Shown in pieces: positions 8,971-22,442 of a stretch of 62,279 bases of DNA. The notes beneath the pieces were generated by a model. It was not told the origin of the DNA and made no database searches. It saw only the letters and a program-made list of their open reading frames with translations. The translations under genes were made by a program, and so were the position numbers. How positions within the stretch are numbered: the first letter of the stretch is position 1; every line of letters starts with the position of its first letter. Origin of the DNA: a candidate division WWE3 bacterium (lineage in GTDB: Bacteria > Patescibacteriota > WWE3 > UBA101185 > UBA10185); NCBI GenBank assembly GCA_012798315.1, contig JAAZNL010000004.1, forward strand, positions 1 to 62,279, written 5' to 3'.

Positions 8971-10619
8971 AGAATAACAGACATCTTTTAGCAGTGATCG
9001 TCGCGTTTTTATTATTTGTTGTAATAGTAGGCGTAAAAGGAAATTTTCCGACAAACGATGATTGGTATTTTGTCCGGCAGGTAAAAGCTTTTGATTTGGG
9101 AATATTTAAACTTCACGCGAAAGTACTTCCTATTTTTATTGTTCAGGGTTTTTTGGGTTTATTGTGGGGTACGTTGTTTGGGATAGGATTCGATAGTCTC
9201 CGCATTCTAACTTTATTGGTAACGCTTTTTAGCGGAATCATTCTATATAGAACTATATTACTGGTAACGCCACAAAAAAGGTTAGCTGGTTTGGGCATGT
9301 TTATCTATTTGTTCAATCCTATTGTTTTATCATCCGCCTTTACATTTATGACTGAAAATTATTATTTGCTGTTTATGGTGTGCTCGGTATATTTTGCGGT
9401 TAAATTTTTCAATTTAAATAGAACCAAAGAGTTTTATTTGGCCTTGTTGTTTATGCTTTTAACTTCCTTAGTTAGGCAAACTGGTTTGTTTTTATTTTTA
9501 GCTTTTTTCGCTGCAGCATCTTGGAAAAACGTAAAAAATATATCTTGGCGAAAAACATTGTTTTTTTTCTTTTCACTTACGGTTACGATCTTGCTAATAG
9601 TCTTTTGGCCACGTTATCAAACGTCAGTTATAGATAAATCGATAAATTTGTCGTCTGGCTATAACGTAATTCTCGAACGATTAAGTGTTTATTTATTAGC
9701 TATACCAATGCTCGTGTTTTGGATATCTCCCTTGTTTATTATTAAAAAGCCATCTGTAGGGCGGTTGTTTGATGTGTCAGTTTTAACTTGGCTTTTTTCA
9801 TATATTGTATTCCGCGTGGACATTTTTCCTTTAGGAAGCGTTTTCTATTTTGAAAGTTTACATATTAAGTCGGGGTTCAGACACAGTTTAAGTATTTTTG
9901 ATAATGTTCCTGCAAAAATTGTTATGTCGGTCTATCTTGGTTTGCTGATTTCGGTTTCCGCTATTTACGTATTTAATAAAATTAAAAAAATTCACATAAA
10001 TAACCGAGTAACTGTATTTTTGTGGTTATGTGTTGTGGGTGTATTAACACCGATTTTGTTGACCCCGACAGTCTATGACCGATATTTTACGCCTTTAATT
10101 GTATTTACCGTTTTGCTGTTAATACCGGAAATCAAGTCGCAGTCCAAAATATTTACTTTGGGAATTTTAATTTTCGCGTTTATATCTGTTGTTAATGTTT
10201 ACGAATTTATAATTGTTAAGTCACTTAAGCATAAGTTATACGAAAGTCTTTTGGCAGATTCTACTGTTAATGTTACCGAAAGGGATATTTACATAGACGA
10301 TACTTACAGTAAATACTTATACGCCGAGGAACAAGAGGACTATGCGGGGCGCGGCCAAAACTTGCCTGTGGGGTTAGTGCACAAGTGTTTTATACAGCAG
10401 TATACGATTGATGGCCCTTTTACTTTATTTATAAAAAATTTAGAGGATAAAGTCGAAAAAAGGATTAAAAACCCTTCGGTTTACGGCTCTACACCGCCAA
10501 TCCGGAATATCAGGATATCCAAACATTTGAATGAACTTAACCGTAACGAAATGTACTTTTCGCCTTTATATTCTATAATTGGAAAGACAGCTTTTGTGGG
10601 AAGCTGGTGCGATAAATGA
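8946..10619 (+). CDS. polytopic membrane protein, putative GT-C glycosyltransferase (GT39/ArnT-like)
   Basis: 557 aa. It has an N-terminal transmembrane helix followed by an NDDWYF acidic loop motif, multiple further helices and a soluble C-terminal ~130 aa. An alternative ATG start lies at 8955. Confidence 0.5.
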   Translation: MSKMFTAIKNNRHLLAVIVAFLLFVVIVGVKGNFPTNDDWYFVRQVKAFDLGIFKLHAKVLPIFIVQGFLGLLWGTLFGIGFDSLRILTLLVTLFSGIILYRTILLVTPQKRLAGLGMFIYLFNPIVLSSAFTFMTENYYLLFMVCSVYFAVKFFNLNRTKEFYLALLFMLLTSLVRQTGLFLFLAFFAAASWKNVKNISWRKTLFFFFSLTVTILLIVFWPRYQTSVIDKSINLSSGYNVILERLSVYLLAIPMLVFWISPLFIIKKPSVGRLFDVSVLTWLFSYIVFRVDIFPLGSVFYFESLHIKSGFRHSLSIFDNVPAKIVMSVYLGLLISVSAIYVFNKIKKIHINNRVTVFLWLCVVGVLTPILLTPTVYDRYFTPLIVFTVLLLIPEIKSQSKIFTLGILIFAFISVVNVYEFIIVKSLKHKLYESLLADSTVNVTERDIYIDDTYSKYLYAEEQEDYAGRGQNLPVGLVHKCFIQQYTIDGPFTLFIKNLEDKVEKRIKNPSVYGSTPPIRNIRISKHLNELNRNEMYFSPLYSIIGKTAFVGSWCDK

Positions 10620-11824
10620 ACACGAACCAAAGTCCGAAATATAACATCATAATGCTGTCCAACCAATTGTGGTCATATCCTTTGTGGACAAACAAAAAAC
10701 ACGTATCTACCAGGTTAGCCAAACTCGGACATAACGTGCTTTTTGTTGATCCACCAATAAACACGGGAAGATTGTTCGCAAGGCAGCTGCTTAAAGGAAA
10801 GTGGACATTAAAAAGATTAATCGAAAAAACCACTAAGGAAGACGAAATAACAGTTTTTTCACCTTTAGATTATTCTCCAAATCACGAAAAAATGGCAGCC
10901 CAACACGTAGAAACAATCCGACGGCTGGAAGACAAATTGTTTGATTCTTCCCGAAAGACTATACTTTGGATTTATCACATGGAAATTCAGGGATTAGAAC
11001 ACTATGTGGAAGATTTACCTTACGATATTCTGGTTTATGACTGTGTAGATAATTATGCAGGCTTTCCGAAATACGATACTTCTCAAAAAAAAGCAGCGAT
11101 AAACGCACAGGAAAAATATCTGGCATCAAAGGCCGATATCGTATTCGCTACTGCTCCCGGTCTGGTAGAAAAACTTAAAAAATATAATCCTAATGTGCAT
11201 TTCACACCAAATGTTGGTGATTATGAAAGATTTATTAAAGCGCGCGACCTTAGGGATCAGTTACCAGAAGATATAGCATCTATCCCGAGGCCCAGAATAG
11301 GATTTACCGGCGCAGTTGATAGCTATAAGTTTGACAAAGAACTTGTGCGCAAAATTGCGGAAGATTATCCAGGGTATTCATTTATTTTGATCGGGCCTAT
11401 GGCGTTGGAGGACAGAGAGGCGACTGTTAACGAACTTGGCTTAAATGGCCTTAGGAATATTTATTTTTTGGGTACAAAAGAGTACTCTGATATGCCAAAA
11501 TATTACGCTGGTTTCGATGTGACGATAATTCCTTATCTGTTAAATGACTACACTGTTGGCGGATGTTTCCCTGTAAAATTTCATGAAGGATTGGCGGCTG
11601 GTGTTCCAAGTGTCGTAACTAACTTACCGGCGTATGCCCCTTTTGCTGATGTTTGTTATATATCAAAAAGCGCAAATGAGTTTTCTCAAAATATACGAAG
11701 GGCGCTCGAGGAAGATTCCGAGGCAAAAGTGAAAGAAAGACAACGTGTTGCTAAGGATAATAATTGGGAAGGCAAGGTCGCCAAAATGCTAGCATTAATT
11801 CAAAATTTTATTGATAACCAATGA
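10616..11824 (+). CDS. glycosyltransferase, GT-B fold (group 1-like)
   Basis: 402 aa with a C-terminal FPVKFHEGLAAGVPSVVTNLP block resembling the GT4 E-x7-E region. The start overlaps the upstream stop (ATGA). Confidence 0.7.
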   Translation: MNTNQSPKYNIIMLSNQLWSYPLWTNKKHVSTRLAKLGHNVLFVDPPINTGRLFARQLLKGKWTLKRLIEKTTKEDEITVFSPLDYSPNHEKMAAQHVETIRRLEDKLFDSSRKTILWIYHMEIQGLEHYVEDLPYDILVYDCVDNYAGFPKYDTSQKKAAINAQEKYLASKADIVFATAPGLVEKLKKYNPNVHFTPNVGDYERFIKARDLRDQLPEDIASIPRPRIGFTGAVDSYKFDKELVRKIAEDYPGYSFILIGPMALEDREATVNELGLNGLRNIYFLGTKEYSDMPKYYAGFDVTIIPYLLNDYTVGGCFPVKFHEGLAAGVPSVVTNLPAYAPFADVCYISKSANEFSQNIRRALEEDSEAKVKERQRVAKDNNWEGKVAKMLALIQNFIDNQ

Positions 11825-12969
11825 AAATTCTATATGTTTTAAATTCCGGAACTCCCGGAGGTATGGAACAACACGTTTTATATTTGGTAAAGGGTATGAT
11901 CGGGCTGGGCCACGAAGTTCATGTTTGGTGTAAACCCGGAGAAATTTATGGATGGTTCGAGCAGGTTGGCGCTAAAATGACGGAGGCTCAAATAAAATAC
12001 GATATTGACCCAACATATATTTCTGCGCTGGGACATTATCTTGAAGATAATCATATTGATGTAGTGCATGCCCATGAACTTAAAGCGGTAGTCAATTCTC
12101 TGATCGCCTCAAATAAATTTTCGGTTAAAGTAAAAGTTACTCACACTCATACCCCTATTTCGGAGTGGCCTGCAGGCGGAATGTTAACCGGCGTAAAACG
12201 TTTTATACAATTTAAATTGTATTCACACTACGTAAATAAGTATGCTTCGGTGGAAATTGCTTTAACTGAATCACGTAAAAAGGTAAAAATGCGTGAAGGT
12301 ATTACAGAAAGTAAATTAAGAATTATACCCAACTGTTTTAATTCAGAAGCCTTTACAGTGGCCGATGAAATGCGTGAAAATTTTAGACGTGAAATCAGGA
12401 TTAAGTACGGAATTCCGCTGGACGCACTTGTATTTGTAAATGTAGGGAGGCTATCAGTTGAGAAAAATCAGGAATTTCTGATAAACGCCTTTTCCGATTT
12501 AGATATCCCGAAAAATTCCAATGTTTATCTGCTTTTTGCCGGAGGGGGAATATTGGAAAACCATTTGAAAGATGTAGTTGAATCTAAGAAAATCAAAGAA
12601 AAAGTAATATTTACGGGCATTTTCTCCCAGGAAAATCTCCCAAAATTTTATTATGCCGGGGATGTCTTTGTATTTCCGAGTAAAGCCGAAGGTTTCGGTT
12701 TGGTATTAATAGAAGCCCTAGCGGCGGCGATGCCTGTATTAGCTTCGGATTTGCCTGTTTTAAAGGAGGTAGGATCCGACACTGTTGATTATTTTTCGTT
12801 ACACGACAAAGCGTATTTAACAAAAATGCTGCAGGGCTACGTAAAATATTTTAGTGAAAATGGTGTAATTCCACTTAACGTTAAGGGTCAGGAAAGAGTA
12901 AACATGCTTTATACGGAGCAGGCTTTTGTAGCAGCGTACGAAAATTTGTATAAGGAACTTTTAGGGTAA
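11821..12969 (+). CDS. glycosyltransferase family 4
   Basis: It has a GGMEQHV N-terminal motif and the classic FVFPSKAEGFGLVLIEALAAAMPVLASD block. The start overlaps the upstream stop (ATGA). Confidence 0.85.
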   Translation: MKILYVLNSGTPGGMEQHVLYLVKGMIGLGHEVHVWCKPGEIYGWFEQVGAKMTEAQIKYDIDPTYISALGHYLEDNHIDVVHAHELKAVVNSLIASNKFSVKVKVTHTHTPISEWPAGGMLTGVKRFIQFKLYSHYVNKYASVEIALTESRKKVKMREGITESKLRIIPNCFNSEAFTVADEMRENFRREIRIKYGIPLDALVFVNVGRLSVEKNQEFLINAFSDLDIPKNSNVYLLFAGGGILENHLKDVVESKKIKEKVIFTGIFSQENLPKFYYAGDVFVFPSKAEGFGLVLIEALAAAMPVLASDLPVLKEVGSDTVDYFSLHDKAYLTKMLQGYVKYFSENGVIPLNVKGQERVNMLYTEQAFVAAYENLYKELLG

Positions 12970-12976
12970 TCTTGTT

Positions 12977-14101
12977 ATGAAAATACTAATGGTAGGAAGA
13001 CCTGACCTTTTTAAATATTATGGCGGAGATAGGGTACAGGTAGAAAATACCGCAAAAGAATTGCGTAATCTTGGGGTTGATGTACAAATAGACACCGGAT
13101 GTATCTCGGATTACTCGGGATACGATTTAATTCACGTTTTTCAATTGGACTGGAACCCTGATAGTTTTTTTATTGTTAAAAAAGCCAAAAAAATGCATTT
13201 ACCCGTTGTTTTATCCGCAATCCATCACAATGTCGGTGAGGTAACCCGCTTCGATAACGAGTATGCTTTTGACTACCGCCGTCTCTCCAGATTTTTATTT
13301 AAAGATCAGTTTAAACGCGATACTTTTAAGGATATTTACCGAACGATTTTGAATTACAAACGTTTACCTGTAACTGTATTCGAAGTTTTTTACGGGCTTA
13401 AAAAAATGTACAAGTGGGTTTTGGAAAATTCTAATATGGTATTGGTTCAAACAGTTAGAGAGGCCGCCGATCTAAAAGAGACATATAACGTTCAATTTAA
13501 ATGGGCCAAAGTTTGCAATGGTGTAGGGCAGGTCTTTTTAGATAAATACACATCAGATACAACTTTAGGAATTAGAAACTACATATTATGCGTCGGAAGA
13601 ATTGAACCACGGAAAAATCAGTTAAGTATTATTGAAGCGGTTAAGAAATTACGTGCAGAAACTAAAGAAGATATTAAACTGGTTTTTGTCGGTGCAAAGA
13701 GTAAACACAAACATTACGAGTATTTTTACCTTTTTAACAAAGAACTAGATGAAAACCACTGGATTAAACATATTAATTTTATGAATTACGAATCCATGCC
13801 GTCATTGTACTCAGACAGTAAAGTTTGCGTATCTGCCAGCTGGTTTGAAACCACGGGATTAACTAGTTTAGAGGCGTTAATGTGCGGTGCAAATGCCGTA
13901 GCCTCGGGGGATCGCGCCAAAGAATATTTAGGTGAATATGCCAGCTATTGCGATCCCGGAGACGTTGAATCTATAAAAGCAGCAATAAAAAAAGAATATT
14001 ATGCGCCTAGGCCCGAACTTTCGGAAACTTTTAAGAATAGTTACACATGGAAAAATACAGCAAAAGAGACGCTGGAGGCTTATAATAGTTTGTTGAACTA
14101 A
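12977..14101 (+). CDS. glycosyltransferase, group 1 (GT4-like)
   Basis: 374 aa with the block VSASWFETTGLTSLEALMCGANAVASG, which corresponds to the GT4 E..G....EA...G motif. Confidence 0.75.
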   Translation: MKILMVGRPDLFKYYGGDRVQVENTAKELRNLGVDVQIDTGCISDYSGYDLIHVFQLDWNPDSFFIVKKAKKMHLPVVLSAIHHNVGEVTRFDNEYAFDYRRLSRFLFKDQFKRDTFKDIYRTILNYKRLPVTVFEVFYGLKKMYKWVLENSNMVLVQTVREAADLKETYNVQFKWAKVCNGVGQVFLDKYTSDTTLGIRNYILCVGRIEPRKNQLSIIEAVKKLRAETKEDIKLVFVGAKSKHKHYEYFYLFNKELDENHWIKHINFMNYESMPSLYSDSKVCVSASWFETTGLTSLEALMCGANAVASGDRAKEYLGEYASYCDPGDVESIKAAIKKEYYAPRPELSETFKNSYTWKNTAKETLEAYNSLLN

Positions 14102-14103
14102 CT

Positions 14104-17100
14104 ATGCTAAACACAATTTTGGAATTATCTGCATTTATTGGAATTTTGGGACTTGGATATATATTGGTCCTGAAAAATTTTAATTTAACGATTTATATAC
14201 TTTTATTGGGTTCGGTTTTACTTCACAAAGAGTTATTCAGTTTTTACAGGTGGGATTTATTGCCGATTAGAGCATTGATGTTTGGTGTTTTGTTAGCTGC
14301 CTTAACTAAATTTGCGTTATATGTAAAAACCAATAAAAAATTTCCTGGATTTCAACTTTTTATTGATCAGCCTTTTCTTTTAATGCTGACAATTCTTTGG
14401 GTAGTCAGGGGACTTTCAATTTTATTCAGTTTTAATTTGGAGGCTTCGGTATTGTTATTTGGATTTTTTACTACGGTTGTAGCGCTTGGAATTTTGTTGC
14501 TAGGATACTTAAAAGGACAGCCGGAAAAGGCTTTGAGTTATCTAAAGTTTTATATATATGTTGCCTTCGGTCTTTCGTTGTTTGGTTTTGTACAGTACTT
14601 TTATCATTTTAAAACCGGTAAAGTTATAGGCTCTTTTTGGGTAATACCGGGAAATATACCAAGAGTGGGATCTTTGTTTTGGGATGTGAACCACTATGGC
14701 GCGCTGATTGCCGCGCTTGTCCCTGTATCCGCGGTCTTAGTATTAATAGAAAAAAAAGCTTTACATAAAATACTTTTTGCCGTTATTACGGTAAGTTTAT
14801 CCATTTCGTTGGTGCTAACAAACTCCAGAACATCTTTGCTAATGGATGGGGTTGCAGTTGCCATTTTTGTAGGCATTCTTTTTCTCAGGAAATTCGGGCG
14901 TAAAGGCGTTTTATTTGTTATGCTGCTTTTTGTTTTTTTGTCCCTTCCTCCGATTTTGGAATACAACCGAAAAGGGAGTGCTTTTAGAGAAAAAGTTAAA
15001 CAATATTTAAATTACCGTGTAGATTCTTCGGATTCGCACTTTTTATTAATATTGGGCGCGTACCAGATATTCGAAGAGTATCCTATTTTAGGCGGTGGCT
15101 ACGGTAGTTTTTTTGAGCATTTCGGTAAAACTCAAGCCGGTCCTTTATATTACGGCAGAGATCCCGCAGCATTAACAAATAGGGTACCGGCGCATACTAT
15201 TTGGGGGGAACTGATAGCGGAAACCGGAATTATAGGATTGTCTGTATTTATTCTATTAATTGGAATAATGACCGGTAGTCTTGGTTATTTAGCATTACGT
15301 TCAACTAATAAATCAACCTATTTATTAAGCAGTGCTATGTTAGGTGTTGTATTGGGGTGGATGGTATCCGGTATCTTTTATTCGTATAACGCGGAATTTT
15401 TTTGGCTGATAATGTTTTTGTTTTTTGGCTTTGGATATGCTGAATTACATAGAGAATTTACGCTAAATCAGGTTGTCAGTTATTTCGCAAAATCAGTAAT
15501 TCCTTTTGCCACAGTATTTTTTATAGCGGCATTTCTGATATTTGTGAAATTAGGTTCGGTTAGTCTTATACCTTGGGATGATGCGATATATGCAAAAATT
15601 GCCAAAAACATGGTGTATACAAACGAATATATTACGCAAAATTGGGTACCGGGCAAAGTGTGGTACGAAAAACCTCCTCTTTTTATGTGGCTGGTAGCCA
15701 TGTACTTTAAGTTGTTTGGTTTTACTGATTTTGCCGCCAAGCTCCCAAGCGCTTTGGCGGGGTTGGGGACTGTAATGCTTGTGTTCGTATTTGCAAAAAG
15801 GTTTTTTGGTAAAACGGCGGGATTCATAGCAGCATTTTCACTTGTTACCACCGTACAGTATCTTTTTTACTCACGTATGGCCATGACTGACGTTCTTTGT
15901 GCCTTTTTTATGACGGCGTCTTTAGCAATTTATTACAGTAAGAGATTTGATTCACAGCTTAATTTTCTTACGATTTTAATTTCAGGGCTTTTTGTGGGCT
16001 TAGCCGTAATGACAAAAGGTGTAGTTGGTTTAATTCCATTAGCCGTCATGGGTTTATACGAAATATACTTATTATTCAGCCGGCAACAAGAAGCGTTGGG
16101 AAAGTCGGTTTTACATTTGTTTGGTGTTTTGCTGGTTTCCGCTGTTATTTTTATGCCTTGGCATTACAGAATGTTCCAATTATATGGTAATAGTTTTCTA
16201 AACAACTACATTGGATATCACGTTTTTGCGCGGGCCACCGAAGATATAGAAAATAAAGAACAGCCGATTTACTGGTACATTATTATTCTAAAAGTAAGCA
16301 TGCGCTTGTGGTTTATATCATTGTTGGGTGCACTGCCTTATTCAGTTGTAAGTCTTTATAAATCTAAAAACACAAAAACAGTTAACTCCTTGGCTTTTAT
16401 TTTAATTTGGGCAGGTTTTATTTTTGCGTTTTTCTCGGTACCAACATCCAAATTAATCTGGTACATTATTCCGCTTTACATTCCGCTGGCTGTTTTAAAT
16501 GGTTATTTTGTAAGTAGTATTTATAACCATATATCGCAAAAGTTTGAACTACTCCAGAATTCCGTTGTTAAATTTTTACTATTTTACATTTTTGGCATTG
16601 TGATTTTAGGTTATACGTTTTTGGTTCGGAATATGATATACGTTCCGGATTCAACCGGAAGTATCGCCAGGCTTTTAAAGTTAAAAGATACTTCATTTGG
16701 TATTGAACAGTTTGCATATTTAGATAGGGTGGATTTACCTTTAGCTTACTACTACACGGACGGAAAATTTAAAATAATTGACTTTAACGCTGAAAAGCCG
16801 GAGAGGATTCCCCAGGTTGGCTTTGACGATAAGCTCGTAATGCTAACAAAAAAAGGCAGATTCGTGGATAAGCTCCCACAATACGATTATTACGCGACAG
16901 TTGTTAAAGAAGATGGAGATTATATCTTGTGGTATTACGAGTCCAAGAGGAACTACTATACCTCGGCGTTAGAAGATGCTAATAAAAGGTGGGCGGAATT
17001 ATCCGCAACAATTACCCAAAAATATAAGGTAGTCATCAATGCGCCCTTGGAAATGCAACAAGAATACAGCTTATTGGTAGATAAAGTAAACGAATACTCA

Positions 17101-17124
17101 GACATATTGATGCTGCATCAATGA
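14104..17124 (+). CDS. fusion protein: O-antigen ligase/polymerase-like (Wzy_C) N-terminal half plus ArnT/PMT-like GT39 (GT-C) C-terminal half
   Basis: The N-terminal half (about aa 1-450) carries LVLTNSRTSLLMDG and VPAHTIWGELIAETGIIGL, both typical of the Wzy_C family. The C-terminal half carries IPWDDAIYAKIAKNM...YEKPPLFMWLVAMYFKLFG...SRMAMTDV, typical of ArnT/PMT_2 enzymes. Confidence 0.65.
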   Translation: MLNTILELSAFIGILGLGYILVLKNFNLTIYILLLGSVLLHKELFSFYRWDLLPIRALMFGVLLAALTKFALYVKTNKKFPGFQLFIDQPFLLMLTILWVVRGLSILFSFNLEASVLLFGFFTTVVALGILLLGYLKGQPEKALSYLKFYIYVAFGLSLFGFVQYFYHFKTGKVIGSFWVIPGNIPRVGSLFWDVNHYGALIAALVPVSAVLVLIEKKALHKILFAVITVSLSISLVLTNSRTSLLMDGVAVAIFVGILFLRKFGRKGVLFVMLLFVFLSLPPILEYNRKGSAFREKVKQYLNYRVDSSDSHFLLILGAYQIFEEYPILGGGYGSFFEHFGKTQAGPLYYGRDPAALTNRVPAHTIWGELIAETGIIGLSVFILLIGIMTGSLGYLALRSTNKSTYLLSSAMLGVVLGWMVSGIFYSYNAEFFWLIMFLFFGFGYAELHREFTLNQVVSYFAKSVIPFATVFFIAAFLIFVKLGSVSLIPWDDAIYAKIAKNMVYTNEYITQNWVPGKVWYEKPPLFMWLVAMYFKLFGFTDFAAKLPSALAGLGTVMLVFVFAKRFFGKTAGFIAAFSLVTTVQYLFYSRMAMTDVLCAFFMTASLAIYYSKRFDSQLNFLTILISGLFVGLAVMTKGVVGLIPLAVMGLYEIYLLFSRQQEALGKSVLHLFGVLLVSAVIFMPWHYRMFQLYGNSFLNNYIGYHVFARATEDIENKEQPIYWYIIILKVSMRLWFISLLGALPYSVVSLYKSKNTKTVNSLAFILIWAGFIFAFFSVPTSKLIWYIIPLYIPLAVLNGYFVSSIYNHISQKFELLQNSVVKFLLFYIFGIVILGYTFLVRNMIYVPDSTGSIARLLKLKDTSFGIEQFAYLDRVDLPLAYYYTDGKFKIIDFNAEKPERIPQVGFDDKLVMLTKKGRFVDKLPQYDYYATVVKEDGDYILWYYESKRNYYTSALEDANKRWAELSATITQKYKVVINAPLEMQQEYSLLVDKVNEYSDILMLHQ

Positions 17125-18314
17125 TATCGGGCTATTGTTACACCGGTTACAATTAATGCTGTAGTAGCAGCTAGTAAATTAGCATATGCCAGGCCCTCAA
17201 TACCGAACTGTCTGCTTAGTATCAATGCTGCTATCATAAAAACAACTAATTTACTTACGTTTACCCAAAGTATATTTTTAGTTTGATTTTCAACAAGAAA
17301 ATAGTTTTCCATAAATGTATGAATTGCCGAAAAGGCAGAAGCAAAAATTAATATGTCTAAAACTTTAATAGAACCCTCGAACTTTTCTCCAAATACGAGT
17401 TTTATAAAAACACCGGAAACAGCAATTGCCAAAAAAGCGAGAATTATTATTCCAAACGAAATTAAAATTGTTTCTCCGATATCGTAGGTTTTTTTCTGTC
17501 CTTTAAGTCTGGCATTTTTCGGCAGTAGAACAGTAAAAATCGACAAGGATACTAACGCAAAAATATTACTGATTTTGCTGGCCAGTGAAAAAGTTCCGAC
17601 ATCGTTGTAATTACGAACATACTTAGTAATTGTGTTATTAATCGCGGGCCACGCTTCCTGAACGAGTTGAGAAAATCCGGAAGGTAACCCCTTTACAATA
17701 AAAGTACGGACATGAGTAAAGTTAAATTTAAAATGTTTCGCGCCTTCCGGAAGGAATGGAAATAAAATTACATCCGCAAAAATGGATAATGAGAAAAAAG
17801 CGAAGGCGTTTACCAAGTTTAAATGTATGGTATTTAGCAATACAAAAACTGCTGCAATGGTTTTAACTAATGCAGGTAACGTATTTAACAAAATTAATTG
17901 GGTATATTTTTCTTCTTTTTGAAAATGAGCATAAAAAGTAAAGTTGATTGTGTAGGCTACTAAGCCGGCCACAAAAATTAAACTTAACCACACGTTTGTT
18001 GGAAAAAAATAGTTAACAATTCCAAGTGAGACAAGAGCGACAACGCTTAACAAAATTATCTTTAAACTATGAAAAGTCTCGGTTATGGATTTATCATCTT
18101 CATTTGTAAGGTATTTTGTAACGTAAATTGAGTTAGAGCCAAAATCGATTAGTTTAACGCACACTAATAAAATGCTCGTAAGTAAGGCGTATTTGCCAAA
18201 ATCTTCAAGTGAAAGCGTTTTAGCCACAACTGCTAAAAAGAAGAATCCTATTCCTGCATTTAAAATGTTTCCGCCCGACACAAATGCTATTTTTACAAAA
18301 GATTTCCTAAACAC
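17118..18314 (-). CDS. oligosaccharide/polysaccharide flippase (Wzx-like, MOP superfamily)
   Basis: 398 aa with about 12 hydrophobic helices. The N-terminus, FVSGGNILNAGIGFFFLAVVAKTLSLEDFGKYALL, is typical of polysaccharide biosynthesis (Wzx) proteins. It uses a GTG start. Confidence 0.75.
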   Translation of the reverse strand: MFRKSFVKIAFVSGGNILNAGIGFFFLAVVAKTLSLEDFGKYALLTSILLVCVKLIDFGSNSIYVTKYLTNEDDKSITETFHSLKIILLSVVALVSLGIVNYFFPTNVWLSLIFVAGLVAYTINFTFYAHFQKEEKYTQLILLNTLPALVKTIAAVFVLLNTIHLNLVNAFAFFSLSIFADVILFPFLPEGAKHFKFNFTHVRTFIVKGLPSGFSQLVQEAWPAINNTITKYVRNYNDVGTFSLASKISNIFALVSLSIFTVLLPKNARLKGQKKTYDIGETILISFGIIILAFLAIAVSGVFIKLVFGEKFEGSIKVLDILIFASAFSAIHTFMENYFLVENQTKNILWVNVSKLVVFMIAALILSRQFGIEGLAYANLLAATTALIVTGVTIARYH

Positions 18315-18357: not shown

Positions 18358-19494
18358 ATGAAAACAATTGGAATAGATGGTCGTTTTTATGGGGAAGCCG
18401 GTCCGGGACGCTACGTAAAGAATATTGTAACTTTTCTGGAGAAAGTTGATAAAGATAATAAATATATAGTTTTTTTAAGGCCAAAAGGAATAGAAGAATA
18501 TAAACCATCAAATCCGAACTTTACCAAACAGATAGCCGATTACAAATGGTATTCGTGGGGTGAGCAAATCGGATTTCTGGTCAGACTTTTGTCAAACAAG
18601 CTGGATTTATTTTATGTTCCCCATTTCAACTTTCCGGTTTTGTATCCAGGTAAACTCGTAACCGCAATACCCGATTTAATAATGCATACATACAGCACTG
18701 AAAAAGGCACGACCTTGCCTAAACCATATTTTAGATTTAAAAAATTTGTCTATAAATTAGTAGTGCATTTAGCAGTTAAGCGTTCGTTTAAAGTCATAGT
18801 TCCTTCTTTTGATGTTCTTAATGATTTTCTAAAAGTGTTTCCTCAATATACGAGAAATAAATATATCGTTGCCGTCGAAGGAGTTGATCCGGCATTCCTT
18901 AATCAGGAATATTCAGAAGAAGGTATAAATACAAAAGTTGAGGGAAATTATCTTTTATATGTCAGCAGCATGTACGAACACAAAAACGTACCACGCCTTG
19001 TAAGAGCCTTTAAAATACTTCGTGATAAATACAAATTGGATCTCAAGCTAGTGTTAGCGGGCAAAAAAGATAAGTATTCGCTGGCGGTTGAAGATTTGGT
19101 GAATTCACTTGGTTTACAGGATTATGTCCTTATACCAGGTAACAAAGCTCCGGTGAGTGATAATGAGTCTAAATATTACCGTAAACACGCCTTATTGTAC
19201 GTTTTTCCATCATTAAAAGAGGGTTTTAGTTTAACACCTATGGAGGCTCAAAGCTTCGGTTTGCCATGTATAATTTCGGATATTCCTGTGCACAGAGAAA
19301 TATATAAAGACACGGTGTCTTATTTTGATCCCGGGAACGAAGAAGATATAGCAGCAAAGATCGCCGCACTTTTAGCAAATCAACAGTTGCAAAAAGAATT
19401 AATAGAAAAAGGTTTAAATCATTACAAAAAATTTGATTGGATTAAAACTGCTGAAATAACTAAAAGTGTCTTTGATGACGCTCTAAAAAATTAG
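18358..19494 (+). CDS. glycosyltransferase family 4
   Basis: Carries the block VFPSLKEGFSLTPMEAQSFGLPCIISDIPVHREI. Confidence 0.85.
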   Translation: MKTIGIDGRFYGEAGPGRYVKNIVTFLEKVDKDNKYIVFLRPKGIEEYKPSNPNFTKQIADYKWYSWGEQIGFLVRLLSNKLDLFYVPHFNFPVLYPGKLVTAIPDLIMHTYSTEKGTTLPKPYFRFKKFVYKLVVHLAVKRSFKVIVPSFDVLNDFLKVFPQYTRNKYIVAVEGVDPAFLNQEYSEEGINTKVEGNYLLYVSSMYEHKNVPRLVRAFKILRDKYKLDLKLVLAGKKDKYSLAVEDLVNSLGLQDYVLIPGNKAPVSDNESKYYRKHALLYVFPSLKEGFSLTPMEAQSFGLPCIISDIPVHREIYKDTVSYFDPGNEEDIAAKIAALLANQQLQKELIEKGLNHYKKFDWIKTAEITKSVFDDALKN

Positions 19495-20624
19495 TTTATT
19501 TTGTGAATATAATCTATTAATTTTTTTGCGGAGTCGAACCATGTGTATCCTTGTGCGTAAACTGCACCCTTTTCTGTCATAGACTCCGTACTTTCTTCTA
19601 CCAGTTTTATAATTGCTTCCGACATTCCTTTTGTATCCGTTGGATTAGCGTAAAATACGCTATCTTTCCCAAGTTGTTTATGCGGCGGAATTGAAGAAAC
19701 GGCACAGGGTATTTTAGATGTCATCGCCTCTAATAAAGTTAGGCTGAAGCCTTCTTCAAACGAAAAATTTACAAAACCTTTTGCACTCGCAAAAAGAAGT
19801 GGTAAATTTTCCTGAGGAATCCATCCTAAATATATAACGGATTCGCTTAAGTTTTCTTTTTTGATGCTTTCAAAAATATCTTCATAATTCCATCCCTTCT
19901 TTCCAACTAAAACCAAATTAATTTCTTCCACTTTTTTACTGTTTTTCCGGGCTAAACTAAAAGCCCTTATTAATCCGACCACGTTTTTTCTCGGTTGTAG
20001 AGTTGATACAAAAAGCAGGTAATTGTTTTTTATACCGTATGTATCTTTAATCTTTTGTTTTTGTTGAATATCGTAGTTTTTGCGAAAATCGTCTGAAACA
20101 CCTTCGTGTATCACACGTATATTATTGGAACTTGAAACCAACCCGGCATTTAATATTTGTTCTTTAGTGTATTCGGAAGGAACTACTATCAGTCTAGCTG
20201 TATTACACGCATATTTTAGCAAATTCCATTGAAGTAAAAACCTGAAACTTATTTTGGAAAACTGTTTGTTGGATTTAATTTCTAATCCATGAACCATAAT
20301 TACAACTTTAGTATTTTTAGGATATATAACCGGTACGGTATGTTCCGGACTAAAATAAAACTCAGGAGAATCTTTAAATAATTGTCGGCTTAAGCCATTA
20401 TGTGTCCAGGACAGGCTACTTTGTATTTGTGTAAATTTAACATACGGAAAATCGGTATGAAGTTTATCCAGTAAAGAATCTTTTTTTAAATCCCGATAAT
20501 AAAGCAAAAAATCCTGATCTTTAAAATCTTTAAATAATGTTCTGTACAAATTATAAGTAAAATATTCAGGACCTGCCGGCTCTAAAGATTCAAGTATTTT
20601 ACCGTTTAGTGCTATAGCCATCAT
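19491..20624 (-). CDS. glycosyltransferase family 4
   Basis: Carries the block NFSFEEGFSLTLLEAMTSKIPCAVSSIPPHKQ. Two adjacent ATG codons lie at the start. Confidence 0.85.
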   Translation of the reverse strand: MMAIALNGKILESLEPAGPEYFTYNLYRTLFKDFKDQDFLLYYRDLKKDSLLDKLHTDFPYVKFTQIQSSLSWTHNGLSRQLFKDSPEFYFSPEHTVPVIYPKNTKVVIMVHGLEIKSNKQFSKISFRFLLQWNLLKYACNTARLIVVPSEYTKEQILNAGLVSSSNNIRVIHEGVSDDFRKNYDIQQKQKIKDTYGIKNNYLLFVSTLQPRKNVVGLIRAFSLARKNSKKVEEINLVLVGKKGWNYEDIFESIKKENLSESVIYLGWIPQENLPLLFASAKGFVNFSFEEGFSLTLLEAMTSKIPCAVSSIPPHKQLGKDSVFYANPTDTKGMSEAIIKLVEESTESMTEKGAVYAQGYTWFDSAKKLIDYIHKIN

Positions 20625-20660
20625 AGTGATTATACCTTGTGCTATAGTATTTCCATAACT

Positions 20661-21785
20661 ATGAAAATCGCAGTAGTTTCAGATGATCTTATTCAACACG
20701 GTGGACAGGAACGTGTGACCGATGCTTTTTTAGATATTTTTCCTACTGCAGTGCTTTATTCAAGTGCAATTTCACCTGAATGGAAAACATATCTAAAGTC
20801 AAAGAATGTAAAATTTCACGTATCTTTCGCGGATAAAATTCCGTTCTTTTATAAACTCTATCGTTATTACGCGCCTTTTTTAATGCACAACTTAGCATTT
20901 GAGAGTTTTAATTTAAGTGAATATGATCTGGTTCTATCCAGTTCTTCCCGTTTTGCGCACACGATTTTAACGAAACCAAAGACAGTTCATGTTTGTTATA
21001 TGCATTCTCCCGGGCGTATGTTTTGGCTGACTGATGATTATTTTAAAAACGAATCGTATGGAATTTTAAAACCATTAAAGAAATTTGCCAAAAGCTTTTT
21101 ATCTTACTTTTTGTTATATCAACGCATGCTGGACTATGTCGCAGCCCAAAGAGTTAATGTCTTTTTGACTAATTCGGAAGTAGTAAAAAAAAGAATCAAA
21201 AAATTTTATGGCAGAGAAAGTAGTGTAATTCACCCTTTTATTGATCTTAAACCATTTAAAAAATTAGTTGCAAAAGATGGTGATTACTTTTTGGTTGTCA
21301 CACGCCTTGCCGCCTGGAAACGGGTTGATATAGCAATTGAGGCCTGTATGGATTTAAATTTAAAGTTAAAAATTATAGGTGATGGTCCCGACATGCCGCG
21401 TTTGGTAAATTTAGCGAAAAAATCCCCTTTAATTGAATTTATGGGAGCAGTACCCGATGATGTGAAATTAGATACTTTAGCGGGTTCTAAAGCGTTAATA
21501 CAAACACAGTATGAGGATTTTGGAATAGTACCTTTAGAAGCCAATGCCACAGGGAAAGTGGTTTTAGCATACGGCAAAGGCGGCGTGCTAGAAACAATGC
21601 AAAAAGGTAAAACCGCGGAATTTTTTTACAGTCAAAATGCAGAATCAGTAAAACAATTGTTGATTAGCTTTGATAGTACCAGGTATGATATAAAGGAGTG
21701 CACAAAAAATGCTGAAAGATTCGATTTAAGCGTGTTCAGACAAAATGTGTTAAATTTCATAAACAGCATTGGCAGTGTATACTGA
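20661..21785 (+). CDS. glycosyltransferase family 4
   Basis: It begins MKIAVVSDDLIQHGGQERV and carries YEDFGIVPLEANATGKVVLAYGKGGVLET. I placed the start at ATG 20661 rather than the TTG at 20637. Confidence 0.8.
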   Translation: MKIAVVSDDLIQHGGQERVTDAFLDIFPTAVLYSSAISPEWKTYLKSKNVKFHVSFADKIPFFYKLYRYYAPFLMHNLAFESFNLSEYDLVLSSSSRFAHTILTKPKTVHVCYMHSPGRMFWLTDDYFKNESYGILKPLKKFAKSFLSYFLLYQRMLDYVAAQRVNVFLTNSEVVKKRIKKFYGRESSVIHPFIDLKPFKKLVAKDGDYFLVVTRLAAWKRVDIAIEACMDLNLKLKIIGDGPDMPRLVNLAKKSPLIEFMGAVPDDVKLDTLAGSKALIQTQYEDFGIVPLEANATGKVVLAYGKGGVLETMQKGKTAEFFYSQNAESVKQLLISFDSTRYDIKECTKNAERFDLSVFRQNVLNFINSIGSVY

Positions 21786-21797
21786 TAGAGAAAATTT

Positions 21798-22442
21798 ATG
21801 GACGTATACTCAATTTTAAAGAGACTAATGGACATTTTCGGCGCATTGGTGGGAATAATTATATTTTCGCCGTTATTAATTGGCGGTGCATTATGGGTAA
21901 AAATAGTATCTCCTGACGGCCCAATTTTTGCTGATATTAAACCCAGAGTAGGCAAAAATAGAGCACCTTTTAAATTTTATAAATTCCGTTCTATGGTCAT
22001 GAACGGATACGAGTTTTTGAAAAATAATTATCCGGAATTGCACAAAAAATACGAAGAAAATAATTACAAATTGAGTGCAGATGAAGACCCGAGATTACTT
22101 AAGGGGGCGAAGTTTGTCAGGCATTACAGTATTGATGAAATGCCTCAGTTTTTTAATGTGTTGAAAGGAGATATGAGTATAGTGGGACCCCGGGCTTACT
22201 ATTTTTATGAAGTTGAAGAACAGTGTCAGCGACACCCTGAGGCAATTCCTTATATGGAAGAGGCACTAAAAGTAAAACCCGGTATTACCGGCTTATGGCA
22301 GGTAAGCGGTAGATCCCAGGTAGGTTTTTTGGATAGAGTAAAAATGGACGCATTCTATGCTAAAAAGCGTTCTATACTGTATGATTTACTAATCATACTG
22401 AAAACCCCGTATGTAGTTTTAACAGGCAAAGGAGCCTTCTAA
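21798..22442 (+). CDS. small (PglC/WbaP C-terminal-type) polyprenyl-phosphate glycosyl-1-phosphate transferase (bacterial sugar transferase family)
   Basis: 214 aa with a single N-terminal hydrophobic helix, followed by PIFADIKPRVGKNRAPFKFYKFRSM, DEMPQFFNVLKGDMSIVGPRA and GITGLWQVSGRS. Confidence 0.9.
   Translation: MDVYSILKRLMDIFGALVGIIIFSPLLIGGALWVKIVSPDGPIFADIKPRVGKNRAPFKFYKFRSMVMNGYEFLKNNYPELHKKYEENNYKLSADEDPRLLKGAKFVRHYSIDEMPQFFNVLKGDMSIVGPRAYYFYEVEEQCQRHPEAIPYMEEALKVKPGITGLWQVSGRSQVGFLDRVKMDAFYAKKRSILYDLLIILKTPYVVLTGKGAF

What the first reader, a model, noticed from the sequence alone, without database searches (positions are those of the whole stretch)
14104..17124. 1006-aa fusion of an O-antigen-ligase/O-oligosaccharyltransferase-like (Wzy_C) module with an ArnT/PMT-like GT39 module
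The N-terminal ~450 aa carries Wzy_C-type hallmarks (LTNSRTSLL; AHTIWGELIAETGIIGL). The C-terminal ~550 aa carries ArnT/PMT_2 hallmarks (WDDAIYAKIAKNM, YEKPPLFMWL, SRMAMTDV). The Wzy_C family includes WaaL ligases, Wzy polymerases and PglL/PilO-type protein O-oligosaccharyltransferases. GT39/ArnT-type enzymes add single sugars from polyprenyl-phosphate donors. Both act at the outer membrane face. A covalent fusion suggests that en-bloc glycan transfer or polymerisation is coupled to single-sugar decoration on one acceptor. I do not recognise this architecture as a characterised enzyme.
Basis: partly seen in the sequence, partly recalled or inferred. Interest (0 to 1): 0.7.

Follow-up and report, generated by a model that had tools for sequence, protein, structure and literature searches.

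The report
Conserved glycan ligase/polymerase–GT39 fusion enzyme
This is a real 1006-residue membrane protein of WWE3 (candidate phyla radiation) bacteria that joins a WaaL/Wzy-type block-glycan transferase to an ArnT-like single-sugar transferase, conserved with its envelope-sugar gene cluster across the group; nobody has characterised it.

Summary
ORF 14104-17124 is uninterrupted. Residues 229-383 match Pfam Wzy_C and 473-691 match PMT_2/PMT, both above the curated cut-offs. An AlphaFold model (pLDDT 91, pTM 0.88) matches ArnT (5F15) and WaaL (7TPG).

It is not an assembly artefact. At least 120 protein clusters from independent assemblies, and 95 matches (80 kept) among species-representative genomes, carry the same fusion. 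Nearly all are WWE3/Patescibacteria.

Key residues of both modules are invariant in full-length members:
- WaaL-type: R242, H364 and the H-S/T-x9-G-x2-G motif.
- ArnT-type: D492, E522/K523, D596, R710, Y787.

Related genomes encode the two halves as adjacent separate genes, which supports a functional link.

The gene sits in a syntenic locus next to the cell-division cluster: GT39-like – three GT4 – fusion – Wzx – GT4(s) – small phosphoglycosyltransferase – DUF4012 – RecO.

Best reading (inferred): the Wzy_C module polymerises or ligates the Wzx-flipped undecaprenyl-PP-oligosaccharide, and the GT39 module adds a sugar from a polyprenyl-P-sugar to the same product at the outer membrane face. 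Polymerase versus ligase, and the acceptor, remain unresolved. It is a new variant of known kinds and is uncharacterised. Interest is moderate.

The parts
14104..17124 (+). Fusion gene: 1006 aa, about 25 TM helices, Wzy_C module plus GT39 (ArnT/PMT_2-like) module plus C-terminal soluble domain
   Evidence: ORF; Pfam; AF2 model with pLDDT 91 and pTM 0.88; 100% identical NCBI protein from a WWE3 contig of 62279 bp
14104..15456 (+). Wzy_C (WaaL / type-B Wzy-like) module, residues 1-451. About 12 TM helices and a large outer loop at 289-365. Conserved residues: R187, D194, N196, R242, S308, H312, GGGYG 330-334, H364, G375, G378, Y426, E431.
   Evidence: Pfam Wzy_C. Foldseek hit to WaaL 7TPG_B, E 1.3e-4, TMt 0.61. 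Profile hit to 7TPG at E 2.4e-8, aligning R242 to WaaL R191 and H364 to WaaL H313. The listed residues are invariant or present in 38 of 39 divergent fusions.
15457..15498 (+). Short cytoplasmic linker (residues about 452-465, amphipathic helix 454-463) between the last Wzy_C TM helix and the first GT39 TM helix
   Evidence: DSSP of the model. This is the least conserved stretch in sequence, yet the E431-D492 spacing is fixed at 61-62 aa in 74 of 79 homologues.
15499..16647 (+). GT39 / ArnT-like GT-C transmembrane module, residues 466-848. Outer loop 1 carries D492/D493. Other key residues: E522/K523, D596, R710, Y787.
   Evidence: Pfam PMT_2 and PMT. ArnT 5EZM at E 1.8e-22 (single sequence) and 1.5e-51 (profile). 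Foldseek 5F15 at E 6.5e-14, TMt 0.66. Residue equivalences to ArnT D55, E84, K85, D158, R270 and Y345 are invariant in all class I fusions.
16648..17121 (+). C-terminal extracytoplasmic alpha/beta domain followed by two long helices (residues 849-1006)
   Evidence: AF2 secondary structure: strands 871-945, helices 948-973 and 982-1004, pLDDT above 90. It sits where ArnT has its periplasmic domain, and it is absent from the roughly 850-aa class II relatives.
7576..8970 (+). Conserved core neighbour: divergent GT39-like GT-C membrane glycosyltransferase ('unk464')
   Evidence: The window copy has no Pfam hit. About 23 of its 120 listed homologues carry PF13231 and five are named GT39. It is syntenic in most loci.
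10616..14101 (+). Three conserved GT4 glycosyltransferase genes directly upstream (10616-11824, 11821-12969, 12977-14101). The last one ends 2 nt before the fusion's ATG.
   Evidence: Pfam; synteny in about 50 loci; sequence
17118..18314 (-). Wzx-type flippase (Polysacc_synt), convergent with the fusion gene and overlapping its end by 7 nt
   Evidence: Pfam; conserved position in most of the listed loci
18358..21785 (.). Three further GT4 genes: 18358-19494 (+), 19491-20624 (-) and 20637-21785 (+). The last is core; the first two are variable.
   Evidence: Pfam; synteny
21798..22442 (+). Small Bac_transf phosphoglycosyltransferase, the initiating enzyme that makes polyprenyl-PP-sugar
   Evidence: Pfam PF02397, E 4.7e-53; core of the synteny
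22449..24395 (+). DUF4012 protein: N-terminal TM helix, long helical stalk, alpha/beta domain and beta-sandwich. It may be an LCP-like final transferase or a co-factor of the pathway.
   Evidence: Pfam. It is 58-81% identical across aligned WWE3 homologues. AF2 pLDDT 77.5. Weak Foldseek matches to 3PE5 (E 7.2e-4) and to the LCP protein Cps2A, 2XXQ. No sequence-level support.

Best explanation
The gene encodes one polypeptide that carries two complete, catalytically competent, lipid-carrier-dependent glycosyltransferases. Both active sites face the outside of the cytoplasmic membrane. It is the terminal assembly enzyme of a conserved Wzx-dependent cell-envelope glycan pathway of WWE3 bacteria.

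Proposed course (inferred unless marked as shown):
1. The small phosphoglycosyltransferase (21798-22442) and the neighbouring GT4 enzymes build an oligosaccharide on undecaprenyl-PP in the cytoplasm.
2. Wzx (17118-18314) flips it across the membrane.
3. The N-terminal Wzy_C module (R242, H312, H364) transfers the glycan en bloc, releasing Und-PP. Because it is the only Wzy_C enzyme in the locus, it most likely acts as the Wzy-type polymerase. Ligation to a final acceptor is the alternative.
4. The rigidly attached C-terminal ArnT-like module (D492, E522/K523, D596, R710, Y787) adds a single sugar from a polyprenyl-monophosphate-sugar to the same glycan as it is made, giving a side branch or cap.
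5. The product is passed on, possibly to the DUF4012 protein, for attachment to the wall.

Shown here: the architecture, the fold, the conserved key residues, the topology, conservation across the group, the split gene-pair orthologues and the synteny.

Inferred: the substrates, the order of the two reactions, polymerase versus ligase, and the acceptor.
For: - Both domains score above the curated Pfam cut-offs.
- The AF2 model has pLDDT 91 and pTM 0.88 over the whole chain. Foldseek matches ArnT at E 6.5e-14 and WaaL at E 1.3e-4.
- ArnT key residues D55, E84, K85, D158, R270 and Y345 align to D492, E522, K523, D596, R710 and Y787. These are invariant in A1 and in all 29 class I members of A2.
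- WaaL R191 and H313 align to R242 and H364. H364 and the H-[S/T]-x9-G-x2-G motif are invariant, and R242 is present in 38 of 39 divergent fusions. This motif (GN2) is needed for activity of a Gram-positive Wzy polymerase and also occurs in ligases (PMC12502699).
- The helix order in the model puts R242, loop 289-365 and D492 on the same membrane face, with a cytoplasmic linker of fixed length.
- Split orthologues exist as adjacent genes. L083/L084 have Wzy_C 460 aa, then a 55-nt gap, then PMT 497 aa. L085 has Wzy_C 431 aa, then a 9-nt gap, then PMT 483 aa. In blastp against the window proteins, the only hit of each PMT is the fusion's C-module (33-36% identity, E 8e-72 and 2e-59).
- The locus order unk464–GT4–GT4–GT4–fusion–Wzx–GT4(s)–PGT–DUF4012–RecO is conserved in about 50 loci and in a relative about 26% identical.
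- No other Wzy_C gene lies in the window locus.
- An ArnC/DPM1-like GT2 (ArnC 9BHC, E 1.7e-17) lies beside the split and class II forms. This fits a polyprenyl-P-sugar donor.
- Post-polymerisation sugar addition by GT-C enzymes to Und-PP-linked glycans is established biology (PMC11127046).
Against: - There are no biochemical data.
- The Wzy_C domain and its motifs do not separate polymerases from ligases or O-oligosaccharyltransferases.
- No Pfam match to a Wzz/PCP chain-length regulator passes threshold in the locus. The only trace is a weak, sub-threshold Wzz hit in 2 of 50 DUF4012 homologues.
- No polyprenyl-P-sugar synthase (GT2) or GtrA-like flippase lies in this 62-kb window.
- The locus also resembles general protein-glycosylation loci: small PGT, GT4s, flippase and one ligase-like enzyme.
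- The position of WaaL R265 holds an invariant His here. The importance of R265 in WaaL is from memory.
- Some genomes carry a second Wzy_C paralogue next to the fusion or the split pair, so in those the fused copy need not be the polymerase.
- I could not inspect model coordinates or the PAE map, so the geometry between the two sites is unknown.
Confidence: 0.42

Rival explanations
1. Protein O-glycosylation machine. The Wzy_C module is a PglL/PilO-type O-oligosaccharyltransferase that transfers the flipped oligosaccharide en bloc to Ser/Thr of secreted surface proteins (S-layer, pilins). The GT39 module is a PMT-like protein O-hexosyltransferase that acts on the same emerging polypeptides. 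What the two modules share is the protein acceptor, not the glycan.
For: - The locus composition (small PglC-like PGT, several GT4s, a flippase, one Wzy_C enzyme, no recognisable Wzz) resembles general protein-glycosylation loci.
- O-oligosaccharyltransferases such as PglS and PglL carry Wzy_C/RfaL-type domains, a catalytic His and pyrophosphate-binding Arg residues (PMC12800693).
- The GT39 module also matches Pfam PMT (E 2.5e-11) and Pmt4 structures.
Against: - The GT39 module is closer to ArnT than to PMTs: ArnT E 6.5e-14 and TMt 0.66, against Pmt4 E 3e-5; NCBIfam ArnT model E 2.3e-27.
- No pilin or S-layer gene is linked to the locus, which lies next to the cell-division/wall cluster.
- Several extra GT-C enzymes and a conserved DUF4012 with weak LCP-like fold similarity point to a wall polymer.
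Confidence: 0.2
2. Prime-and-ligate enzyme. The GT39 module first puts a sugar from a polyprenyl-P-sugar onto a lipid or glycan acceptor, such as a glycolipid anchor or a GT-C-built backbone. The WaaL-like module then ligates the preassembled Und-PP-oligosaccharide onto that acceptor. This resembles WaaL joining O-antigen to a core sugar.
For: - WaaL-type enzymes transfer to a sugar hydroxyl of a lipid-linked acceptor, and the module shares R191/H313 equivalents and the fold with WaaL.
- The core locus contains a second GT-C (unk464), and relatives carry several more (PMT x3, GT87, DUF2079). Together these could build an extracytoplasmic backbone.
- Where two Wzy_C paralogues exist, one is paired with the GT39 and the other stands alone beside Wzx. 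This is compatible with a ligase/polymerase split.
- GT-C enzymes have been proposed to act as glycan-to-glycan ligases in lactococci (PMC10821137).
Against: - No candidate acceptor is identified.
- Most WWE3 loci have only one Wzy_C enzyme.
- The order of the two reactions cannot be deduced from sequence.
Confidence: 0.2
3. Only one module is catalytic. The GT39 part serves as a membrane scaffold, lipid-carrier binding module or partner-docking module for the Wzy_C enzyme.
For: In the shorter class II relatives (about 785-875 aa), the Wzy_C residues stay invariant but the ArnT-type D55, E84 and D158 equivalents are mostly replaced.
Against: - In the window protein and all 29 class I fusions examined, every ArnT-type key residue is invariant.
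- The split-form PMT genes are full-length enzymes.
- Alignment of class II proteins at 20-25% identity is uncertain.
Confidence: 0.06
4. Artefact: two adjacent genes joined by a sequencing frameshift or misassembly.
For: Split gene pairs exist in related organisms. One locus (L073) shows the gene broken in two.
Against: - The frame is continuous.
- At least 120 independent clusters and 80 genome loci have the same single ORF.
- The linker length is fixed.
- The model is confident across the junction.
Confidence: 0.01

Closest known systems
WaaL O-antigen ligase (Cupriavidus metallidurans, PDB 7TPG/7TPJ) and related Wzy_C enzymes (PglL/PglS O-oligosaccharyltransferases, type-B Wzy polymerases)
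   Same: - The N-module matches Pfam Wzy_C and has the WaaL fold (TMt 0.61).
- It has about 12 TM helices and a large outer loop.
- R242 aligns to WaaL R191 and H364 to WaaL H313.
- It carries the GN2 motif H-x-x9-G-x2-G and a GN1-like R-x24-GxG (motifs from PMC12502699).
   Different: - It is covalently fused to a GT-C_A enzyme.
- The host is a CPR bacterium and the window shows no lipid A or LPS genes, so it cannot be a WaaL orthologue in function.
- The WaaL R265 position holds an invariant His.
- The module belongs to a small, isolated clade: 594 representatives at E <= 1e-3 among 1.84 billion proteins.
ArnT (GT83; PDB 5EZM/5F15) and bacterial PMT_2/GT39 enzymes
   Same: - The C-module has the same fold (TMt 0.66, E 6.5e-14).
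- Equivalents of D55, E84, K85, D158, R270 and Y345 are conserved.
- It has a C-terminal extracytoplasmic domain.
- By family, the expected donor is a polyprenyl-monophosphate sugar.
   Different: - It scores far below the ArnT equivalog cut-off (95.8 against 567 bits).
- No Ara4N pathway genes and no lipid A are evident.
- Of the positions aligned to ArnT H265 and H267, neither is His: they are Y705 and V707, with the invariant H706 between them. That these ArnT histidines bind zinc is recalled from memory.
- It is fused behind a Wzy_C enzyme.
Three-component (GtrA/GtrB/GT-C) extracytoplasmic glycosylation systems, e.g. Shigella Gtr, streptococcal GacI/J/K/L, lactococcal WpsA/B/G/J
   Same: A GT-C enzyme adds sugar at the outer face to a glycan built by a primary pathway (PMC11127046; PMC10821137). 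An ArnC/DPM1/GtrB-like GT2 accompanies the split and class II forms.
   Different: Here the GT-C is physically fused to the Wzy/WaaL-type enzyme of the primary pathway. No GtrB-like or GtrA-like gene was found in this window.
Gram-positive Wzx/Wzy-dependent capsule pathway (Streptococcus pneumoniae cps: CpsE, GTs, Wzx, Wzy, LCP CpsA)
   Same: It has an initiating Bac_transf PGT, several GTs, a Wzx, one Wzy_C-type enzyme with GN motifs, and a conserved extracytoplasmic protein with weak LCP-like fold similarity.
   Different: - The locus is conserved across a whole class rather than hypervariable.
- No CpsBCD-type tyrosine-kinase regulators were seen.
- Extra GT-C enzymes are present.
- The polymerase candidate is fused to a GT39.

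Membership tests
Wzy_C / O-antigen-ligase-like superfamily (PF04932) | Profile match above the curated threshold | tested here: met
   47.2 bits against a cut-off of 31.7, residues 229-383. All 120 listed homologues carry PF04932.
Wzy_C / O-antigen-ligase-like superfamily (PF04932) | WaaL-type fold: about 12 TM helices, with a large extracytoplasmic loop before the last three | tested here: met
   Foldseek 7TPG_B at E 1.3e-4, TMt 0.61. Helix order from the model: loop 289-365 followed by three TM helices.
Wzy_C / O-antigen-ligase-like superfamily (PF04932) | Catalytic His in the motif H-N/S-x9-G-x2-4-G (GN2), plus the pyrophosphate-binding Arg | tested here: met
   H364-T-x9-G375-x2-G378. H364, G375 and G378 are invariant in 39 of 39, and position 365 is S or T. 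H364 aligns to WaaL H313 and R242 to WaaL R191. Roles are taken from PMC12800693 and PMC12502699.
Wzy_C / O-antigen-ligase-like superfamily (PF04932) | Second conserved Arg of WaaL (CmWaaL R265; its importance is recalled from memory) | tested here: not met
   The aligned position is an invariant His (H312).
WaaL proper (lipid A-core O-antigen ligase) | Acceptor is lipid A-core in an organism that makes LPS | not testable with these tools
   The window has no LPS genes. The host is a WWE3/Patescibacteria bacterium, but only 62 kb of the genome is held.
Wzy polymerase (functional class) | Polymerises Und-PP-linked repeat units, usually with a Wzz/PCP co-polymerase | tested here: inconclusive
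   It is the only Wzy_C gene in the locus. No Wzz match passes threshold. DUF4012 has a long helical stalk, and 2 of 50 homologues give weak Wzz hits (E 0.017).
GT39 / PMT_2 (PF13231, PF02366), GT-C_A fold | Profile match above the curated threshold | tested here: met
   PMT_2 79.8 against 26.1 bits; PMT 44.1 against 22.7 bits.
GT39 / PMT_2 (PF13231, PF02366), GT-C_A fold | Acidic catalytic residue in the first outer loop, plus phosphate-binding Lys/Arg (ArnT D55, E84, K85, D158, R270, Y345) | tested here: met
   D492, E522, K523, D596, R710 and Y787 align to them. They are invariant in A1 and in all class I members of A2.
ArnT (lipid IV(A) 4-amino-4-deoxy-L-arabinosyltransferase, NF009784 equivalog) | Score above the equivalog cut-off | tested here: not met
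   95.8 bits against a cut-off of 567. It is ArnT-like in fold but not an ArnT orthologue.
Three-component extracytoplasmic glycosylation system | Cognate polyprenyl-P-sugar synthase (GtrB/ArnC/DPM1-like GT2) and a small flippase nearby | tested here: not met
   The window has no GT2 or GtrA match. An ArnC/DPM1-like GT2 is present beside the split and class II forms in L085, L083 and L082.
Wzx/Wzy-dependent glycan pathway | Initiating PGT, cytoplasmic GTs and a Wzx flippase in one locus with the Wzy_C enzyme | tested here: met
   Bac_transf at 21798-22442, eight GT4 genes and Polysacc_synt at 17118-18314. The arrangement is conserved in about 50 loci.

The most novel reading that the evidence does not exclude
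The fusion is the central machine of a CPR-specific, class-wide conserved cell-wall glycopolymer pathway. In it, an ArnT-like GT-C and a WaaL-like transferase act in obligate succession on one substrate channelled between two active sites, either prime-and-ligate or polymerise-and-branch. The DUF4012 protein acts as a previously unrecognised LCP-like wall-anchoring enzyme. This would be a new way of coupling single-sugar and en-bloc lipid-linked glycan transfer, and the first defined envelope polymer pathway of these uncultivated bacteria.
Probability: 0.15. Interest if true: 0.75.

Novelty: new variant of a known kind. Interest (0 to 1): 0.5.

Why it matters
WaaL/Wzy-type enzymes and GT-C enzymes have, as far as I know, so far been studied as separate proteins, and how en-bloc transfer is coordinated with periplasmic sugar decoration is not known. 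This natural fusion is rigid, confidently modelled (pTM 0.88) and has split-gene orthologues. It says the two steps are physically coupled in at least one lineage. It also gives a single-chain target for cryo-EM and for reconstitution of both reactions.

The locus is conserved across WWE3 and lies beside the cell-division genes, so it probably encodes a core envelope polymer of a group whose cell surface is essentially unknown.

Practically, database names such as 'glycosyltransferase family 39 protein' miss the Wzy_C half of the protein.

Tried and rejected
- **Misassembly or frameshift.** Rejected: the frame is continuous, at least 120 independent clusters and 80 genome loci show the same ORF, and the linker length is fixed.
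- **A separate Wzy in the locus.** I tested whether unk464 (7576-8970) could be one. Its homologues carry PMT_2, so it is another GT-C and not a polymerase.
- **Polyprenyl-P-sugar synthase or GtrA in the window.** None found. unk144 (7158-7592) gave only chance-level hits.
- **N-module alone against PDB.** The single sequence found nothing. Only the family profile reached WaaL.
- **DUF4012 against LCP or Wzz by sequence.** No support. Only a weak structural hint remains.
- **Literature.** Searches for Wzy_C+PMT_2, O-antigen ligase+GT39+fusion, Patescibacteria/WWE3+O-antigen (ligase), and CPR+GT39/ArnT/Wzy found no description of the fusion. The WaaL structure paper (PMC9884178) is not held.
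- **tRNA and Rfam scans of the window.** Empty, and irrelevant to this finding.
- **Hydropathy TM calling.** My crude method was too noisy to use. I derived topology from the AF2 helices instead.
- **Taxonomy of distant class II proteins.** It could not be obtained, because the cluster look-up returned no names.

Full report
**Observation.** The window holds an uninterrupted ORF at 14104..17124 (+) of 1006 aa. Pfam detects Wzy_C (residues 229-383, E 2.6e-12, 47.2 bits against a cut-off of 31.7), PMT_2 (523-686, E 3.3e-22) and PMT (473-691, E 2.5e-11). NCBIfam gives a long but sub-threshold match to the ArnT equivalog model (469-848, 95.8 bits against 567). It also gives a weak full-length match of the N-half to a putative O-glycosylation ligase family.

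**Origin and reality of the fusion.** The protein is 100% identical to an NCBI entry named 'phospholipid carrier-dependent glycosyltransferase [candidate division WWE3 bacterium]', from a contig of 62279 bp, which is this window. All 120 best homologue clusters (878-1033 aa, 42-72% identity) carry both PF04932 and PF13231. They come from NCBI, JGI, ENA and Logan assemblies. A scan of species-representative genomes gave 95 confirmed matches, of which 80 loci were kept. Nearly all are WWE3 or unclassified Patescibacteria MAGs, and they include the complete genome CP006914. The distance between the last Wzy_C anchor (E431) and the first GT39 anchor (D492) is 61-62 residues in 74 of 79 homologues, although this is the least conserved stretch in sequence. 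A frameshift or misassembly is excluded.

**Structure.** AlphaFold2 with a 79-sequence alignment gave pLDDT 91.0 and pTM 0.88 for the whole chain. Foldseek against the PDB returned ArnT (5F15, E 6.5e-14, TMt 0.66) for the C-half and WaaL (7TPG_B, E 1.3e-4, TMt 0.61) for the N-half. PMT, OST, ALG and Aft enzymes followed as weaker matches. No solved structure holds both modules. A family profile hits ArnT at E 1.5e-51 and WaaL at E 2.4e-8.

**Key residues.**
- The alignment to ArnT equates D55, E84, K85, D158, R270 and Y345 with D492, E522, K523, D596, R710 and Y787.
- The alignment to WaaL equates R191 and H313 with R242 and H364. WaaL R265 corresponds to an invariant His, H312.
- In 39 fusions down to about 20% identity, R187, D194, N196, S308, H312, G330/332/334, H364, G375, G378 and Y426 are invariant. 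R242 and E431 are each present in 38 of 39. Position 365 is S or T.
- The module thus carries the GN2 motif (HNx9Gx2-4G), plus a GN1-like RxnGxG in the window protein. PMC12502699 finds these motifs both in Gram-positive type-B Wzy polymerases and in Gram-negative ligases, and links them to inverting, beta-forming transfer.
- PMC12800693 describes the corresponding His as the catalytic residue and the Arg residues as pyrophosphate ligands in WaaL and PglS.
- These features say 'active Wzy_C enzyme'. They do not tell a polymerase from a ligase.

**Topology.** Reading the model's helices outward from D492 (outside, as in every GT-C) gives the following order. GT39 TM1 is 466-480. The cytoplasmic linker is 452-465. 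Three TM helices (431-451, 403-422, 366-399) come next, then the large outer loop 289-365, and then R242 at the outer end of helix 242-264. Both active sites are therefore on the outer face. The N-module has the WaaL-like arrangement of about 12 TM helices with both ends inside, which allows head-to-tail fusion to a GT-C that starts inside.

**Family size and classes.** An exhaustive phmmer search with residues 1-462 against 1.84 billion representatives found only 594 proteins at E <= 1e-3 and 61 at E <= 1e-30. The module belongs to a small clade, which divides by length as follows.
- Class I: 915-1070 aa, full fusions.
- Class II: about 785-875 aa. The three of this size scanned with Pfam carry Wzy_C plus PMT_2, and they lack the C-terminal domain.
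- A further class of about 700-750 aa has Wzy_C plus an unassigned C-terminal part.
- A few stand-alone proteins are 430-460 aa.
- All 29 class I proteins examined keep every ArnT-type residue. Class II proteins keep the Wzy_C residues but have mostly lost the D55, E84 and D158 equivalents. Their GT-C part may be degenerate, although alignment at 20-25% identity is uncertain.

**Split orthologues.**
- In two JGI metagenome contigs (L083/L084), a 460-aa Wzy_C gene is followed after 55 nt by a 497-aa PMT gene.
- In L085, a 431-aa Wzy_C gene is followed after 9 nt by a 483-aa PMT gene. In each case the pair sits behind GT4 genes.
- In blastp against the window proteins, the only hit of each PMT is the fusion's C-module (residues 474-937 at 33% identity, E 8e-72; residues 475-816 at 36%). 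They do not match the other GT39-like proteins of the window. The Wzy_C proteins match residues 41-439 and 21-439.
- This is classical gene-fusion evidence that the two enzymes work together.
- An ArnC/DPM1/GtrB-like GT2 (best PDB hit ArnC, E 1.7e-17) lies two genes upstream in L085. Orthologues of it lie in L083 and directly after a class II fusion in L082.

**Genomic context.** The fusion is the last gene of a tightly packed + strand run. The GT4 gene upstream ends 2 nt before its ATG. The convergent Wzx overlaps its end.
- The first 24 kb of the window form a glycan locus. It holds eight GT4 genes, an FkbM methyltransferase, a 1017-aa membrane protein without Pfam match, two further GT39-like GT-C proteins (7576-8970 and 8946-10619), Wzx, a small Bac_transf phosphoglycosyltransferase and a DUF4012 protein.
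- Downstream come RecO, a class II aminoacyl-tRNA synthetase and the mraZ-mraW-ftsI...murG-ftsQ-ftsA-ftsZ cluster.
- In about 50 loci the order unk464–GT4–GT4–GT4–fusion–Wzx–[GT4, GT4]–GT4–PGT–DUF4012–RecO is conserved. It persists in a relative about 26% identical, which adds three PMT genes, a GT87 and a GT2.
- The variable insertions beside Wzx are rhamnose-pathway enzymes and GT2s.
- This is a conserved core locus with a variable part, not a hypervariable serotype locus.
- No other Wzy_C gene is present in most loci. A divergent sub-lineage has a second Wzy_C paralogue (703-746 aa) directly after the fusion, and L083 has a stand-alone one beside Wzx.

**DUF4012.** This neighbour is more conserved than the fusion, at 58-81% identity. 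Its model (pLDDT 77.5) has an N-terminal TM helix, three long helices, an alpha/beta domain and a beta-sandwich. The best Foldseek match is 3PE5 (E 7.2e-4, TMt 0.44). From memory, 3PE5 is a LytR-CpsA-Psr family protein. The LCP protein Cps2A (2XXQ) also appears, at probability 0.98. Sequence profiles give no support. It may be a distant LCP-like wall-anchoring enzyme, but this is only a lead.

**Mechanism.** The evidence fits a Wzx-dependent pathway.
1. The PGT and GT4s build a polyprenyl-PP-oligosaccharide.
2. Wzx flips it.
3. The Wzy_C module transfers it en bloc.
4. The attached ArnT-like module adds a sugar from a polyprenyl-P-sugar.

I favour polymerase plus branching/capping (0.42) for three reasons. 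The fusion is the only Wzy_C enzyme in the locus. The motifs match Gram-positive type-B Wzy polymerases. GT-C decoration of Und-PP-linked polymers is established.

The rivals are:
- a PglL-like plus PMT-like protein O-glycosylation machine (0.2);
- a prime-and-ligate enzyme on a lipid or glycan acceptor (0.2);
- a non-catalytic GT-C scaffold (0.06);
- an artefact (0.01).

None of the first three can be excluded by sequence.

**Comparison and novelty.** Each half belongs to a known superfamily by profile, fold and key residues. The protein fails the ArnT equivalog threshold and cannot be a WaaL in function. The fusion itself is already visible in public databases, and one JGI entry is even named 'ArnT-like glycosyltransferase/O-antigen ligase'. 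I found no paper that describes it. I therefore rate it a new variant of known kinds: real, conserved, uncharacterised and of moderate interest.

**Limits.**
- There is no biochemistry.
- Only 62 kb of the genome is held.
- The roles of WaaL R265 and of the zinc site in ArnT, and the family of 3PE5, rest on memory.

Noticed in passing
window 22449-24395: The DUF4012 protein is the most conserved gene of the locus, at 58-81% identity. Its AF2 model gives weak Foldseek matches to 3PE5 (E 7.2e-4) and to the LCP wall-assembly protein Cps2A (2XXQ, probability 0.98). Profile searches show no sequence-level link. It may be a distant LCP-like glycopolymer-to-wall transferase with a long helical stalk.
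   Followed up: partly
window 7576-8970: This 464-aa membrane protein has no Pfam hit itself. About 23 of its 120 listed homologues carry PMT_2 and five are named GT39. It is part of the conserved core of the locus, so the core has two GT-C enzymes. NCBI calls the protein 8 residues shorter (456 aa).
   Followed up: partly
window 3884-6937: A 1017-aa protein with about 10 N-terminal TM helices, a large extracytoplasmic part and a C-terminal TM helix. It has no Pfam match even at E <= 5. Weak homologues (23-29% identity) sit in the same position in a few loci (L003, L004, L052, L070).
   Followed up: no
proteins P0277, P0279, P0281, P0283, P0285, P0294, P0295, P0298, P0300, P0307 (class II, about 785-875 aa): These shorter Wzy_C-GT39 fusions keep every Wzy_C key residue. 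They have mostly lost the ArnT-type D55, E84 and D158 equivalents and lack the C-terminal domain. Their GT-C module may be a pseudo-enzyme.
   Followed up: partly
L085 338-1066; L083 3150-3833; L082 10564-11355: ArnC/DPM1/GtrB-like GT2 genes (ArnC 9BHC, E 1.7e-17) lie next to the split or class II forms. They are probably polyprenyl-P-sugar synthases that feed the GT-C enzymes. No counterpart exists in the window.
   Followed up: partly
L070 13062-15287; L071 3005-5218; L076 13038-15149; L077 8506-10746: In a divergent sub-lineage, the fusion gene is followed directly by a second Wzy_C paralogue of 703-746 aa. Its C-terminal ~300 residues did not match the window fusion; Pfam assigns no family to that part in the similar-sized P0278 and P0280.
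   Followed up: partly
L071 (JAWABG010000068.1) and many TPA_asm loci: One contig labelled 'Candidatus Woesearchaeota archaeon' carries the bacterial fusion and its paralogue, which suggests mis-binning. Many bins labelled 'uncultured Candidatus Saccharibacteria bacterium' have the WWE3-type syntenic locus, so that label looks generic.
   Followed up: no
L073 9950-12911: Here the fusion is broken into 365-aa and 598-aa ORFs and lacks residues about 360-391, including the catalytic His region. It is a pseudogene or an assembly error, and the only such case among the 80 loci apart from the heavily fragmented L064.
   Followed up: no
window 14104-15456 (residue H312): The position aligned to WaaL R265 is an invariant histidine in all 39 divergent fusions. 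This is a family-specific change in the presumed pyrophosphate-binding site.
   Followed up: no
window 24511-61681: The rest of the contig is housekeeping: RecO, a class II aaRS, mraZ/mraW, two PBPs, a two-component system, glycolytic enzymes, LexA, UvrABC, MurA-like, MraY, FtsW, MurG, FtsQ, FtsA, FtsZ and ribonucleotide reductase. The whole window has no tRNA or Rfam match.
   Followed up: yes
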